From Octopus vulgaris (taxonomy: Eukaryota), in NCBI GenBank assembly GCA_951406725.2, contig OX597842.1, forward strand, positions 20,150,001 through 20,214,000: 64,000 nucleotides of DNA, written 5' to 3'. Made by a program: the position numbers. Numbering within the stretch: the stretch's first letter is position 1; each line of letters starts with the position of its first letter. Shown one piece after another: positions 51,801 to 64,000 of the stretch.

Positions 51801-54800
51801 TTATGTCTTTTCAATAATTATATTAATTTGTGTGTGTTGCAAAAATTTTCTGAAATTATAAGAACTGTTTAAACCAGGATTCTACCTGGAAGGCCACAAT
51901 TATACAAATACCTGTAATTTGGTATTTGTTTTCATTCAGCAAGAAGAAAGAAAGAGACAAAAAATGCAGTTGCTTTAGTGTTGTATAGTAATTGATAAAA
52001 CTCAAAAAAAAAGGGGAGGAGGCGGAAACAATGCAAAGTTTAAATCTGTCTCTTCAAATTTTACATTAACCCTTTTGTTACCAACCCGACCGAAACCATC
52101 TCTGGCTCTGTAGTACAAATGTCTTGTTTTCTTAAGTTTTGAATTCAAATCTTCCACCAAACCTTAATCACAATTTATGTTCCTAACACTATCTTAATGA
52201 TAACTAAGTTATTTTACTAAATTCTTTGTTATATTTAAAGTAATTGAAAGAAACACAGAACATCTCGACAGAAATATGGTAAAGAAAGGGTTAAGGAATG
52301 GAACATACAGTTTGTTGTAATTCAGACCACCTCAAGGTCCCAGCAGACAAAATAGAAAAGGAGTTGCCCTAGAGGAGGGCAATGGAGACCCACAGGGCTT
52401 GCACATGCAGGTAGCCATTTCTGCCCGATAGCTGTGAGCAGGGATACAGCTGAGGGCCCTAGGGTGCCAGAGGTCTCCAATGTGCACACTCGACCATAAA
52501 CCCACCATTCCAAAAAGATTTCATTCCAAAAATTTTCCTCAATAAAAATCGTTATTTTATCTTTTTTTGTATGTAGTTTTAATTTAGAGGGTACCATTTG
52601 AAATAGGTGTCACCATGAATTTTTGAAAATATTTAAATGTAATTTCTACTGTTTTTTTGTTTTTCTTGGTGAAATGAAAGGATGAGTGATTTTCACATGA
52701 AAAGATGGGTGATATGAGGGAGATTTAGCTGTTGTGTCTTGCATATCACACAGACACTGTGTACCTTTCACAGAATTACATGTAGACATAGATTAAAGAA
52801 CAAACAAAATGTGAAAACTAATTCCTTATTTTAAGCATTAAAAATGTAAATTCAAGACTCTATCAATATCTGTAACTTACTGGAAACTCATTAGGAGATG
52901 TGGAGAGAGAGAGAGACAACCCAAAGACCGAGGAGCCGCCAGTTGCTGAAACAGACACTCCGAGGATTTTCACCAGAGCACCGTCTGCCGGGTTGTGGGC
53001 CTAATACCACTCGGTGTAAGACCAATCTGCCTTGGGTGGCCCTACAAGGAACCGAAGTTCCCGACAGCATAGCTCTGACACTACCCGTTGCCAGTGTCCC
53101 CACCACGGTGAGGAGGGGATGGACTTCGGGGACGCATGATTTTTTAATGCAACATGAGTTATGGTGCTTGAGTGCATTGAACTAGAACGAGGGTTGTCAT
53201 TCAACAGTCCAAGAAAAAAACAAAGTTTGTAAATGCGAGGAAATACCATGGAGTTTCAGGGACCCTGACATGATCTGTAACTGTTGGATTTTCAGAAAAA
53301 CTATACAAGAAGGCGCAGGAGTGGCTGTGTTGTAAGTAGCTTGCTTATTAACCACATGGTTCCGGGTTCAGTCCCACTGCATGGCATCTTGGGCAAGTGT
53401 CTTCTGCTATAGCCCCGGGCTGACCAATGCCTTGTGAGTGGATTTGGTAGATGGAAACTGAAAGAAGCCTTTCATATATATGTATATATATATATGTATG
53501 TATGTGTCTGTGTTTGTCCCCCTAGCATTGCTTCACAACCGATGCTGGTATGTTTACGTCCCCGTCACTTAGCGGTTCGGCAAAAGAGACTGATAGAATA
53601 AGTACTGGGTTTACAAAGAATAAGTCCCGGGGTCGATTTGCTCGACTAAAGGCGGTGCTCCAGCATGGCCGCAATCAAATGATTGAAACAAGTAAAAGAG
53701 TAAAGAGTAAGAAGAATGTTCATAGTTTCAAATGATTTAGAATTTTCTTCAGAAAACGTTTATTTTGACGTGAAAATGCTGTAGCAAAAAGTGTTTGTGC
53801 AAGTTCAAACTGCACTTGTCTCTACTGTACAGCGTTCTGTAGTATTCGAAATAGTTAAGAATAAGATCTCCAATGCCACAGGCTCGACCACAAATCTATT
53901 AAAGAGTGACTGATGATATTGTGACTGTTTGTTTTTCTCAGCCTGACCAGCTTCGGACCCTGGGTTATAAACTTTGTTATTTTGCAAATTTTGAAATTTA
54001 TTTTTTCAGATCATGGCTAAATGGAACTTGTTCTGCTATTTGTTTGTAACATTTGTCTGTAAGTATTATTTATATTTTATTTAATTTTTTTCCATAACTT
54101 GTAAGTAGGGTTTGCAATTATTAAAATTTTTAAACCAAAGATTGGGGTGACTGGATGTCAAAAAAATACCAAATACCAAACTTCCAGTTTCTGCTTTCTA
54201 GTAAACATTGCAGAAAAGTTTCCATAACAATTTTAAAACTGAAAAGCCCAGGTCCAGGGTATGCCATGGACCTCCGATGCACCACTTCAGATCCCTGTGA
54301 TATCTATTGGATAGTTTGTACCCCTGATTTTTATCTAAATTTTTGGTGAAAAAAAAGTGAGACCTATTTGTGAGTATGGATGGTACATCTACCAACAATG
54401 AAGTAACCCCGATTGCCAAGAAAGGAGCTGTAACACCATACATTCTCCCCTTTGATTTTCTGTACCTTTCTAGTCTGTGTAAGTTTGCTCTGTTAATATT
54501 TAATTCAGATTTCTGATGCTTGAATATTCTCCGTCTGAAATTTTTCAGTCTTTGCTTCCTCTCTATTAACGTGTACGCATGGATGTATATCTAACCCACT
54601 CAGTTTTATTTGTTTATTTACATCGTTATCTCCATATCTGCCCACCTGGATTCCCCTTATAGCCACTCTTTACCCCATGGACTTTGTTCTTGGTAAAGAT
54701 TTCAGAGTGTAGCTTCATTTGAGTAGGGCTAAGTGTTTTCAATACAGACTGTCCCAGAATTAATTATCTATTTCAGTGAAATTGGACCCTTTTTTTTTAA

Positions 54801-57149
54801 AGGTCCTTTTTGTTTCTGCTTCACATATTTAATATATGTTAATTGATTAAATTTTTAATTTTGTTTATAATTTTATTTTCATTCCTTATCTGTCCATGAC
54901 AGCTTTTTTCAATATGACTGCAATAAATTACTTTACCACAATGCCCCAGATGGAGCAATCTTTTAGCTGAACTTAAAGAATGCATTCAGTTAGCAGTGCA
55001 GAAGATAAACTCCAGAAATACTTCCAAATGTGTTTCACAAGTCTACAGATACATTTGAAATTTCCAGGGGGCCGATGGAGCACATTTTGAAAATTCTCAA
55101 TAAAGTTTTGATGAAAGATTTATAAATTACACGTTACTGGCACAGGTGCCTTTTACTAATTACCGACACTGGCCACATCCTTGATTTCCATTAGCTTGAC
55201 ATATCTTCTGAAGAAGAGCAAATCCCCAGGAATCACAGTCACTTATCAATACATGTCAGCCTCAACATCCAAAGCCCTCATGTTCCACCGTTTTGTCCTG
55301 CACCTTCCAGGGTCCACCTCTTCCACAGATTGCCTCCACAGTTAGAGATCAGCACTTCTTTACATAGCAGTCCTTGTCTGTTCATTTTTAGAATGACATT
55401 GTAAGACAGGTGTAAAAGGATGACCCATTACCAGTTTAAACACGAAACAGGTAGAATCTTTGTGCCAGGTATGGCTACTTTAACTCGTTAGCAATCAATT
55501 TATTTCGCTTAATGTAATGCTCATTTAGACTTTGTTTTTGAATTAATCATTCATTATCTTATAGTTTTGACATTTTGATGATGTGATTGTTTATTTTTAG
55601 ACTGACATTGTAGGGTAGGTGTGAGGGGTTGGACCCGGCCACTTAGAACATAAAACAGATATGGCTGGTTTAATCATTTAGCAATCAAATTACTGTGAAA
55701 TATAATGTTCATTTATTCACATTATTTTGAATTATTTCATCTTAAAATCAAAATTTTTGTTTTCATCTTTTACAGGTTTGTCAAGGGCAAAAAAGTATAG
55801 GATCACCCAAAGTGGTAAATATATTCTTCTTTCCTGCCTTTGACCCTCCAACGCGGAGTATAGGCCACTCATAATTGAATTCCATGTTTCATAATTTTTC
55901 ACTTCTGTACTTATACTCTGCCAGGAATGTCCCCCTTTCTCTAGTTCCTTTTGTGTTGATCTACGCCACAAGTTCTTAGGCCTACCTTTCTTTTTACATC
56001 CAACCGGTTTCCACTTTAAACACTTTTCGCTACATTTAGTGTGTCTTTTCTAATTGTGCTACCAATCCACTTCCTCCTTTTCTTAAATATTTGCTCCCTA
56101 ATCAAAACTTGATTTGTTCATTGCCATAGCTCCATATTGCGTATGTGTTGGGGCCATCTAATTTTAAGTATACTACGCAAGCATCTGTTGATGAATGATT
56201 GTATTTGCTTATTTGACTTGACTGTTGTTTGCCATGTCTCAGCCCCATACAATAACACCACTTTTACGTTAGTGTTAAAAATTCTTAACTTAAGTTAAGT
56301 TAATTTTGGGCCTCAAAAAGCAAACAGCAAAAGGCCATGTAGGGGAACATGGAGTTATGTACAGGGTGGTGTTCATGCAAAGAGTTCAGGCCATTTGTGG
56401 TCAAGGGAGACTTTGAACCGAGCGGTCGTCGGCATCTTCACTATCTCGTCCGGCAGCTTATTCCACGGAACCGCAACCCGGACAGAGAAGGACCCCTCTC
56501 CTTCGATTGAGATGAAATCGTCACAGATAGAGCTTTTCGGAGTGACCCCGCAGCCGACGCTCTGGAGCAGGAGTGAAGAACAGCTCTTTCGAGAGGTTAT
56601 TTTGTTGTTTATTGAAATTACACTTGCGCTCCATACCTTCTTTAACAGGTGAAAAACGGTCCTTGCCTTACTTATTCTCACCTTAATATCTTCGTCGGTG
56701 CCACCTGAAAACGTTATCTTACTACCTGAATACATAAACTCAGCTACATCCTTCAGTTCACCAGTTTCTAGTTGAATACATTCAATGTTTACTACATTAA
56801 CGTGCATAATTTTTGATTTGAGGTTGACTTTCAATCCTAGTTTGGCAGCTATTGCTTCTAATTTTGACATTTTATTTTGCATTTGGCTATGTTTGTGAAA
56901 GCAGCCCCCTATCATCTGCAAAGTCGAGATCTTCTACAGCTTCCACATCCGTCCATTCAATGACTGTTTGGCTTTCAATCGTAGTTTCCTTCATGATCCA
57001 ATCTATGACTAATAGAAATAAAAAGGGAGAAAGTATACAGCCCTGTCCTATTAAATCTAAATAATTAGTTAATAAATTATATGAATTGGTATTATCTGGA
57101 AGTTGATGATTGAAAGGAATCTATTCATCCATTTTCTTATTTTGTGTGT

Positions 57150-57186
<37 letters not shown>

Positions 57187-63521: not shown

Positions 63522-63576
<55 letters not shown>

Positions 63577-64000
63577 AATGGGCTTCGCTCAGTTTCCATC
63601 TATCAAATCCACTAACAAGGCTTTGAAACACGCAAGTGTGTATGTATATACATATATACACACACACATATACATACACACACACACACACATACATACA
63701 ATGGGCTTCTTTCAGTTTCCATCTAGCAAATCCACACAGGCTGTAGTAGAAGACACTTTCTCAAGGTGCTGTGTAGTGGGACTGAACCCGGGATCGTATG
63801 ATTTGGAAGCAAACTTCTTAACTGATTTCTTTATTTCAGGAATTGCTCTGCTCAATGGATGTCTCACCCTTTCAATAACAATACCTAATATGAAACGACC
63901 GGTGGTTTGGAAATGCGGCAATTATAAATATGAATGTGACAGGACATGCGCTGATGGCCCTGACTATAAAGTGACACAGGATGGAAATACCTCCACGCTT

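What the first reader, a model, noticed from the sequence alone, without database searches (positions are those of the whole stretch)
54013..64000. One leader exon followed by tandem variant domain cassettes: possible Dscam- or V-segment-like diversification
Seen: the 5.5-kb tandem duplication starts ~40 bp after the leader exon, so it repeats only the [39 nt + 249 nt] pair. All junctions are phase 1, so the leader can splice in frame to cassette 1 or directly to cassette 2, or the cassettes can be chained. Each 39-nt exon keeps a signal-peptidase-like S-x-A site (LSRA, FSSA), as expected if each cassette can follow the leader. Inference: either mutually exclusive variable N-terminal domains on a shared leader, or a recently lengthened multi-domain ectodomain. 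Either would be a candidate uncharacterised cephalopod recognition receptor.
Basis: partly seen in the sequence, partly recalled or inferred. Interest (0 to 1): 0.85.

Follow-up and report, generated by a model that had tools for sequence, protein, structure and literature searches.

The report
Octopus Ig-like receptor with duplicated domain cassettes
This is the front end of an uncharacterised octopus membrane-protein gene whose outer part is a chain of immunoglobulin-like domains, each built from a two-exon cassette that has been copied in tandem; it looks like ordinary domain duplication, not a Dscam- or antibody-style diversity generator.

Summary
A tandem repeat of about 5.5 kb (54094-58452 vs 59580-64000, 95.4% identity) begins 36 nt after a leader exon. 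It repeats only a 39-nt exon plus a 249-nt exon, and every junction is phase 1.

The 249-nt exon folds as an Ig-like beta-sandwich (pLDDT 91.3; Foldseek matches to titin/obscurin I-set, NCAM2 and VL domains).

Relatives are few: 36 of 1.84 billion representatives. Those with names are Octopus and Argonauta "uncharacterized" proteins, plus one distant abalone hit.

The relatives are type I membrane proteins: leader, 1-5 chained cassettes, stalk, transmembrane helix, short tail. All 26 O. sinensis isoform models examined chain 2-5 domains. In 25 of 26 the junction ...IK-S-FSSANIYKITQSG appears, which is the one that domain exon 1 spliced to mini-exon 2 would give here. No model joins a leader directly to an FSSANIY mini-exon.

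So the "lengthened multi-domain ectodomain" alternative is supported. Mutually exclusive or V-segment-like use is not. The relatives' models do predict optional cassette skipping and alternative leaders.

An inverted paralogue with its own leaders lies at 619-6392. Exons diverge faster than their flanking introns.

No transcripts were available. The window ends inside cassette 2.

The parts
51540..51616 (+). Upstream exon, probably 5' untranslated. It is preceded by an AG acceptor, has a GT donor after 51616 and a second donor after 51643.
   Evidence: tblastn of the N-terminal read-through text of the O. sinensis and O. vulgaris models (P0009, P0017, P0018) hits 51527-51646. Sequence read. 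The two donors correspond to LOC115225116 isoforms X6 and X5.
54010..54058 (+). Leader exon. ATG at 54013, MAKWNLFCYLFVTFV plus one base, so it ends in phase 1. It encodes the hydrophobic core of a signal peptide.
   Evidence: It matches the MAKW... leaders of the O. sinensis models.
54094..59579 (+). Tandem repeat unit, copy 1: intron, mini-exon 1, intron, domain exon 1, spacer.
55776..55814 (+). Mini-exon 1, 39 nt, phase 1-1, (C)LSRAKKYRITQS(G). It supplies the end of the signal peptide or an inter-domain linker, plus strand A.
   Evidence: In the model of the relative P0007 the equivalent residues form a low-confidence linker followed by a strand.
58292..58540 (+). Domain exon 1, 249 nt, phase 1-1 (P0001, 82 whole codons). 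It encodes strands B-G of an Ig-like sandwich.
59169..59576 (.). SINE-like dispersed repeat that abuts the junction between the two copies. It is inverted relative to the copy at 53311-53707.
59580..64000 (+). Tandem repeat unit, copy 2, cut by the window end.
61262..61300 (+). Mini-exon 2, 39 nt, phase 1-1, FSSANIYKITQS. Its peptide is identical to the internal mini-exon peptide of the O. sinensis models.
63840..64000 (+). Domain exon 2, first 161 of an expected 249 nt (P0002, 53 codons). It differs from exon 1 at 4 of 161 nt.
619..867 (-). Domain exon of an inverted paralogue, gene A (P0050). 79% amino-acid identity to P0001.
2851..2889 (-). Mini-exon of gene A, (Y)LSSAQNYNITQS(G).
5543..5591 (-). 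Leader exon of gene A, MAKWILFCCLFVTFV. The exon with its upstream flank (5501-5798) is 97% identical to 53803-54100.
6347..6392 (-). Second, alternative leader exon of gene A, MDILKFFCCLSALF, phase 1.
   Evidence: Both leader types head O. sinensis isoforms that share the same first cassette.

Best explanation
The region is the 5' part of a gene from a small multigene family, found so far almost only in octopods, of single-pass (type I) membrane glycoproteins. Their ectodomain is a chain of divergent Ig-like domains of about 96 residues.

Each domain is encoded by a two-exon cassette. The 39-nt exon gives a short flexible linker (or, when it follows the leader, the end of the signal peptide) plus strand A. 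The 249-nt exon gives strands B-G. Every intron is phase 1, so cassettes can be added, lost or skipped without breaking the frame.

The 5.5-kb repeat is one extra cassette. I infer that it arose by unequal crossing-over within the cassette array and was later patched by gene conversion.

The default mRNA chains the parts: upstream non-coding exon, leader, cassette 1, cassette 2, then (outside the window) further cassettes if any, a proline-rich stalk, a transmembrane exon and a short tail. Optional cassette skipping and alternative leaders probably add isoforms.

Shown: the exon anatomy, the phases, the Ig-like fold, and the architecture of the relatives. Inferred: the splicing path at this locus, the mechanism of duplication, and a cell-surface binding function.
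For: Anatomy and phases.

Fold.
- AlphaFold2 of the exon translation with a 36-row family alignment gives pLDDT 91.3, pTM 0.81 and seven strands.
- Foldseek against PDB gives obscurin, titin and twitchin I-set domains, NCAM2 Ig1, antibody VL, CD58 and ZIG-8, with TM-score (query) 0.57-0.74 and best E 4.9e-4.
- The O. sinensis three-cassette relative P0007 models as a signal helix, three sandwiches and a transmembrane helix at 313-344. Its linkers at 111-115 and 205-211 have pLDDT below 50. It matches tandem-Ig structures at E down to 4.5e-11.

Architecture of relatives.

Counts over the 26 O. sinensis isoform models (LOC115225115 X1-X18, LOC115225116 X1-X8).
- Domains per model: 2 in 3 models, 3 in 5, 4 in 11, 5 in 7.
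- The FSSANIY mini-exon follows a domain exon 40 times, a mini-exon 2 times and a leader 0 times.
- The junction IK-S-FSSANIYKITQSG is present in 25 of 26 models.
- Here domain exon 1 ends in A and mini-exon 2 begins GT, which gives the same Ser.

Same order in a relative. LOC115225116 X5/X6 read MAKW leader, LSRA-type cassette, FSSANIY-type cassette, as in this window.

Synteny. An O. vulgaris model fuses an H2B gene to this kind of gene (P0018), and H2B lies upstream here.
Against: No transcript evidence exists for this locus.

The relatives' isoforms are automatic predictions. Near-identical cassettes can mislead spliced-read mapping.

The window ends inside cassette 2, so the stalk and transmembrane exons are not seen here.

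The window's own exon matches no Pfam family at E up to 10. It matches no PDB sequence, either alone or as a family profile. Ig membership therefore rests on the predicted fold and on weak I-set matches in relatives.

The canonical B-F cysteine pair is absent.

B1 and B2 differ at only 4 of 161 exon bases, so purifying selection on cassette 2 cannot be shown (omega 0.29 from 2 synonymous and 2 non-synonymous changes).
Confidence: 0.8

Rival explanations
1. Alternative N-terminal domains. The leader splices to cassette 1 or to cassette 2 in a mutually exclusive way (Dscam-like), or cassette choice works like clustered-protocadherin or sDscam 5' cassettes. Each mRNA would then carry one variant first domain.
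For: All junctions are phase 1, so leader-to-61262 is in frame.

Both mini-exons keep a small-x-small motif, LSRA and FSSA.

In the O. sinensis models, LSRA-type mini-exons follow a leader 3 times and a domain exon 22 times. Some isoforms skip cassettes or half-cassettes (X8, X9, X11, X12, X15-X17). Two alternative last cassettes are also used (X1 vs X2).

The seven differences between the two mini-exons are clustered (7 of 39 nt, P = 1.7e-4).
Against: All 26 relatives' models chain at least 2 domains. The FSSANIY mini-exon follows a leader in 0 of 42 occurrences.

Cassette 2 has no leader-like exon of its own. By contrast, the sDscam paper reports a promoter before each variable cassette (PMC4835542, section 9).

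The top 25 inverted repeats show no docking/selector-like pairing, but simple repeats dominated that search.

The two domain exons differ at only 2 of 53 residues, which is little variety to choose between.
Confidence: 0.07
2. Assembly artefact. Two haplotypes of one cassette were laid side by side as a false tandem duplication.
For: The copies are close (96.8% at aligned bases). The second copy runs off the window, so its far junction cannot be inspected.
Against: No N or gap lies at the junction, which is instead a SINE-like repeat abutting unique sequence.

The copies differ by 3.2% plus 12 gap openings, including a block of 47 gap columns.

The two mini-exons are of two distinct types (7 of 39 nt differ). 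Each recurs, in the same order after a MAKW leader, in independent O. sinensis models.

Multi-cassette arrays are the rule in two other assembled species.
Confidence: 0.05
3. Cassette 2 is a recent, leaderless partial duplicate that is not used: pseudo-exons skipped by the spliceosome, or a dead end.
For: Cassette 2 has no leader of its own. There are too few differences to prove constraint. Its 3' end is unseen.
Against: The frame is open and the AG and GT sites are intact at both exons as far as they are visible.

The mini-exon 2 peptide is identical to a mini-exon peptide used 42 times in the O. sinensis models.

Its domain exon is 96% identical over 55 residues to a domain in a O. sinensis model.
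Confidence: 0.08

Closest known systems
Octopus sinensis LOC115225116 and LOC115225115 (RefSeq 'uncharacterized protein', 8 and 18 protein isoforms) and their O. vulgaris counterparts
   Same: Same leaders (MAKW..., MDILKF...). Same two mini-exon types. Domains 72-96% identical. Same cassette order after the MAKW leader. Same upstream non-coding exon text. H2B nearby.
   Different: Not identical: the best match to domain 1 is 84-87%. In this window the two domain exons are nearly alike (2 of 53 residues differ), whereas the corresponding O. sinensis pair differs at many positions. That points to independent duplication or homogenisation. No function is known for any member, and no paper turned up.
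Multi-Ig type I receptors built from phase 1-1 domain exons (for example LILR/PirB, CEACAM, NCAM, IgLON, DIP/Dpr)
   Same: Signal peptide, tandem Ig-like sandwiches, transmembrane helix. Structural matches to LILRB3, CEACAM6, NCAM2, IgLON5 and DIP-alpha. One domain per phase-1 unit (the general rule for these genes is recalled, not tested here).
   Different: Each domain is split into a 39-nt and a 249-nt exon. There is no canonical B-F disulfide; instead an invariant C32-C36 pair and a co-varying C25/C62 pair. The cytoplasmic tail is very short (about 5-8 residues) and no signalling motif is seen. There is no sequence-level match to Pfam Ig models for the window's exon.
Chelicerate sDscam genes with tandem 5' Ig cassettes (PMC4835542; abstract and sections 9 and 10 read)
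   Same: Tandem multi-exon cassettes encode Ig domains. Exclusion or multiple inclusion keeps the frame. Non-canonical splicing changes the number of Ig domains (section 10).
   Different: [quoted passage not shown] Here cassette 2 has no first exon of its own, and the relatives' models chain the cassettes. No sequence homology to Dscam was detected.
Drosophila Dscam1 mutually exclusive exon clusters
   Same: Tandem variant exons encode part or all of an Ig domain.
   Different: One-variant-per-mRNA does not hold in the relatives' models. No docking or selector pairing was found (weak test). The variants here are nearly identical.

Membership tests
Immunoglobulin superfamily (Ig-like domain, I-set/V-set type) | Seven- to nine-strand Greek-key beta-sandwich | tested here: met
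   Exon model: pLDDT 91.3, seven strands. Top PDB matches are all Ig-like domains, TM-score (query) up to 0.74. The three-cassette relative matches tandem-Ig structures at E down to 4.5e-11. These are predicted, not solved, structures.
Immunoglobulin superfamily (Ig-like domain, I-set/V-set type) | Sequence match to a curated Ig profile above its cut-off | tested here: inconclusive
   The window's exon matches 0 Pfam families at E up to 10 and 0 PDB sequences, alone or as a profile. Among relatives, P0011 matches I-set at 35.5 bits (cut-off 23.7) with one passing stretch. P0004 and P0005 exceed the cut-off only as summed scores, with no single passing stretch. In the Atlas feature search, V-set/I-set clusters score 0.88-0.90, which is a lead only.
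Immunoglobulin superfamily (Ig-like domain, I-set/V-set type) | Conserved Trp in strand C and a Cys pair joining strands B and F | tested here: not met
   Trp23 is invariant in 36 of 36 rows. The mid-B-strand position 11 is never Cys in 31 rows that have a residue there. Instead C32 is present in 36 of 36 and C36 in 35 of 36. C25 and C62 co-occur: both in 20 rows, neither in 13, one only in 2. The assignment of these positions to strands rests on the model. Many accepted Ig-like domains lack the disulfide (recalled), so this marks a variant and does not exclude membership.
Immunoglobulin superfamily (Ig-like domain, I-set/V-set type) | Domain units bounded by phase-1 introns | tested here: met
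   Leader 46 coding nt, mini-exons 39 nt, domain exon 249 nt, all phase 1.
Dscam1-type mutually exclusive exon cluster | Exactly one variant of the cluster in each mRNA | tested here: not met
   Tested only on the relatives' predicted models: all 26 chain at least 2 cassettes. No transcripts of this locus were available.
Dscam1-type mutually exclusive exon cluster | Docking site and selector sequences that pair in the pre-mRNA | tested here: inconclusive
   The inverted-repeat search of 54000-61300 found 104 pairs. The 25 shown are TA microsatellites and one 156-nt intronic inverted repeat. None involves the unique 54059-54093 stretch.
sDscam / clustered protocadherin type alternative-promoter 5' cassettes | Each variable cassette has its own first exon and promoter | tested here: not met
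   There is no leader-like sequence between 58541 and 61261. The leader region matches only the inverted paralogue. In O. sinensis some internal cassettes do have their own leader (LSRA mini-exon after a leader in 3 of 25 uses).
sDscam / clustered protocadherin type alternative-promoter 5' cassettes | Variable cassettes splice to shared constant exons | not testable with these tools
   Any constant exons lie beyond position 64000.
V-gene segments of rearranging antigen receptors | Recombination signal (heptamer, spacer, nonamer) directly after the V exon | tested here: not met
   CACAGTG occurs 3 times in the window (chance expectation 4.7). None is next to a domain exon; the nearest, at 59493, lies inside the SINE-like repeat. 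Domain exon 1 ends in a GT donor. The nonamer was not searched.

The most novel reading that the evidence does not exclude
The window samples an octopod-specific, chromosomally clustered family of Ig-like surface proteins that diversifies in two ways.

The first is germline: cassette duplication and mosaic gene conversion, with exons diverging faster than their introns (omega about 1.3 between paralogues, variation focused in loops).

The second is at the RNA level: alternative leaders, cassette and half-cassette skipping, and alternative membrane-bound or tail-less ends.

That would make it an independently evolved recognition repertoire, immune or self/non-self, comparable in logic to sDscam, LILR/KIR or snail FREPs.
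Probability: 0.2. Interest if true: 0.75.

Novelty: new member of a known kind. Interest (0 to 1): 0.45.

Why it matters
Little is known about variable surface receptors in cephalopods. The full-text searches found no paper on this family.

The family is small: 36 representative hits in 1.84 billion. Of these, 23 are named Octopus or Argonauta proteins.

The family shows several features of fast-evolving recognition molecules.
- Tandem, frame-neutral domain cassettes.
- Several alternative leaders and alternative tails in the relatives' models.
- Clustering of many paralogues on one contig in two species.
- Exons more divergent than their flanking introns.

It is therefore a reasonable candidate for expression and binding studies.

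The specific claim of Dscam- or V-like choice is not supported. What the window itself shows is ordinary domain duplication in a multi-Ig gene.

Tried and rejected
- Pfam on the window's domain exon: 0 families at E up to 10.
- PDB sequence search with the exon and with the family profile: 0 hits.
- Literature: LOC115225115/LOC115225116 gave 0 papers. [quoted passage not shown] gave 310 papers holding at least 3 terms; I read the 15 listed titles and abstract starts, and none is on this family. "cephalopod + IgSF" gave 11 papers, 10 listed, none on this family.
- Docking/selector search by inverted repeats: swamped by TA repeats and uninformative.
- Recombination-signal heptamer: no more frequent than chance and not next to the exons.
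- NAHR between the two SINE-like copies at 53311-53707 and 59169-59576 as the cause of the duplication: rejected. They are in inverted orientation, and the repeat starts at 54094, not at a SINE end.
- Weak representative hits P0036, P0042, P0044, P0046 and P0049 carry unrelated Pfam domains (CHU_C/MBG, Kringle/CUB, PKD, subtilase). I treated them as chance matches.
All searches and folds used single exons (P0001, P0002, P0050) or named reference proteins.

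
Full report
WHAT IS THERE

The window has no N. Direct-repeat search and blastn show one long tandem duplication: 54094-58452 aligns with 59580-64000 at 95.37% over 4426 columns, with 133 mismatches and 12 gap openings. A MAFFT alignment gives 140 mismatches in 4354 aligned bases, 3.2%.

The repeat begins 36 nt after a short exon at 54010-54058. This exon carries an ATG at 54013 and 46 coding bases (MAKWNLFCYLFVTFV plus one base), so it ends in phase 1.

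Each repeat unit holds two exons.
- A 39-nt exon: 55776-55814 (LSRAKKYRITQS) and 61262-61300 (FSSANIYKITQS).
- A 249-nt exon: 58292-58540, and 63840 onward, cut by the window end after 161 nt.

All exons have AG acceptors and GT donors, and all are phase 1-1. The leader region 53803-54100 has no copy between the cassettes.

WIDER CONTEXT IN THE WINDOW

A third, inverted copy of the whole unit, called gene A here, lies on the minus strand at the start of the window.
- Domain exon 867-619 (P0050, 79% identical to P0001).
- Mini-exon 2889-2851 (LSSAQNYNITQS).
- A MAKW-type leader at 5591-5543.
- A second leader at 6392-6347 (MDILKFFCCLSALF).

Upstream of the plus-strand leader there is a further exon at 51540-51616, with a second donor after 51643. 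It matches text that the O. sinensis and O. vulgaris models carry in front of the leader. This exon has an acceptor of its own, so the gene starts still further upstream.

Between the two divergently oriented genes lie two copies of a histone H4-H3-H2A-H2B quartet.

WHAT THE EXONS ENCODE

The 82-codon translation of domain exon 1 (P0001) matches no Pfam family and no PDB sequence. It does find 17 longer proteins, all from Octopus. In a full scan of 1.84 billion representatives it finds only 36 hits at E up to 0.001, 25 of them at E up to 1e-10.

I saw names for 26 of those 36.
- 23 are "uncharacterized" or "hypothetical" proteins of O. sinensis, O. vulgaris, O. bimaculoides or Argonauta hians.
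- One is an I-set protein of the abalone Haliotis rufescens.
- Two are unnamed.

The other ten were not looked up. Five of them carry unrelated Pfam domains and are probably chance matches.

FOLD

With a 36-row family alignment the exon folds with high confidence: pLDDT 91.3, pTM 0.81, seven strands. The model matches Ig-like domains in the PDB, namely obscurin, titin and twitchin I-set domains, NCAM2 Ig1, VL domains, CD58 and ZIG-8. TM-scores (query) are 0.57-0.74 and the best E is 4.9e-4.

A three-cassette O. sinensis relative (P0007) models as an N-terminal helix, three sandwiches and a transmembrane helix. The first residues of each internal mini-exon form low-confidence linkers and the remaining residues form strand A. 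This model matches tandem-Ig structures down to E 4.5e-11.

The domain is a variant Ig.
- The C-strand Trp is invariant.
- No Cys ever occupies the mid-B-strand position.
- A C32-C36 pair is invariant or nearly so.
- A C25/C62 pair co-varies: both present in 20 rows, both absent in 13, discordant in 2.

HOW THE CASSETTES ARE USED

The relatives are leader + 1-5 cassettes + a stalk (NPKPEPPKPK...) + a transmembrane helix + a very short tail.

I parsed all 26 O. sinensis protein isoforms of LOC115225115 (X1-X18) and LOC115225116 (X1-X8).
- Every model chains 2-5 domains.
- The FSSANIY mini-exon follows a domain exon 40 times, another mini-exon twice, and a leader never.
- The LSRAQKY mini-exon follows a domain exon 22 times and a leader 3 times.
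- The junction ...IK-S-FSSANIYKITQSG occurs in 25 of 26 models.

In the window, domain exon 1 ends in A and mini-exon 2 starts with GT, which gives exactly that Ser. LOC115225116 X5/X6 have the same order as the window: MAKW leader, LSRA cassette, FSSANIY cassette. This supports the chained reading.

The same models also show predicted cassette skipping, half-cassette skipping, several alternative leaders and three alternative C-termini. Some optional use is therefore plausible. These are automatic models from another species, and near-identical cassettes can inflate such isoforms.

There is no sign of Dscam-type exclusivity, of a promoter or leader for cassette 2, or of a recombination signal.

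EVOLUTIONARY SIGNALS

The seven differences between the two mini-exons all fall within 55780-55800. That is 7 of 39 nt against 133 of 4315 elsewhere in the repeat (binomial P = 1.7e-4). Six of the seven are non-synonymous.

Both mini-exon types also exist in O. sinensis. I therefore infer one of two things: the repeat backbone has been homogenised around an older difference, or a short conversion tract patched one copy.

Between gene A and cassette 1 the domain exon is more diverged (28 of 249) than its flanks (36 of 835; Fisher P = 1.7e-4). dN is 0.13, dS is 0.10 and omega is about 1.3.

Across 21 distinct domain sequences of the close relatives, variation concentrates at position 26, at 37-40, at 46-49 and at 74-76. 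It occurs as a few alternative blocks in different combinations. This fits mosaic conversion with relaxed or diversifying selection. The counts are small and no formal site test was run.

ASSEMBLY ARTEFACT

This is unlikely.
- There is no gap at the junction.
- The copies differ by 3.2% plus indels.
- The two mini-exon types recur in the same order in an independent assembly.

It cannot be excluded without reads.

VERDICT

The locus is real and coherent: the 5' part of a lineage-restricted, uncharacterised multi-Ig type I membrane-protein gene in which one domain cassette has been duplicated in tandem. The "lengthened ectodomain" alternative is supported. The Dscam- or V-like headline is not.

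I found no paper on the family. Supplements were not consulted.

Interest is moderate. It would rise if transcript data showed regulated combinatorial use of the cassettes, or if the family proved to be a recognition repertoire.

Noticed in passing
window 26442-42164: Two copies of a core-histone quartet lie between the two receptor genes. Copy 1: H4 26442-26753(-), H3 27033-27443(+), H2A 31462-31839(-), H2B 32109-32486(+). Copy 2: H4 37287-37598(-), H3 37871-38281(+), H2A 41140-41517(-), H2B 41787-42164(+).
   Followed up: partly
window 619-6392, minus strand: An inverted paralogue of the finding's gene, with two alternative phase-1 leader exons about 800 bp apart (MDILKFF... and MAKW...). 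Both are preceded by an AG acceptor. The two genes are head to head, about 48 kb apart.
   Followed up: yes
window 53311-53707, 59169-59576, 12190-12583, 8329-8720, 9505-9878, 20526-20904, 43629-43979 and others: An abundant SINE-like dispersed repeat of about 400 bp, 80-93% identical between copies, often in short tandem runs (for example 23328-23905). A fragment also lies about 20 nt upstream of each 249-nt exon (58136-58271) in all three copies.
   Followed up: partly
window about 11000-24000: Weak tblastn hits recur at 11478, 15537, 19345 and 22668, and similar ORFs at 11048 and 22227. This suggests a tandem repeat with a period of about 3.3-4.1 kb. Content not identified.
   Followed up: no
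window 57430-57585 / 57633-57788 (and the copy in repeat unit 2): A 156-nt inverted repeat, 81% complementary with a 47-nt loop, inside the cassette intron. It looks like a small foldback element.
   Followed up: no
proteins P0018, P0035, P0003 (public models, not the window): Some public gene models look like chimeras. P0018 fuses histone H2B to a one-cassette receptor. P0035 fuses C2H2 zinc fingers to a family domain. P0003 runs cassettes into a second leader.
   Followed up: no
window 619-867 vs 58292-58540 and their flanks: The domain exon is more diverged between the paralogues (11.2%) than its flanking introns (4.3%), with omega about 1.3.
   Followed up: partly
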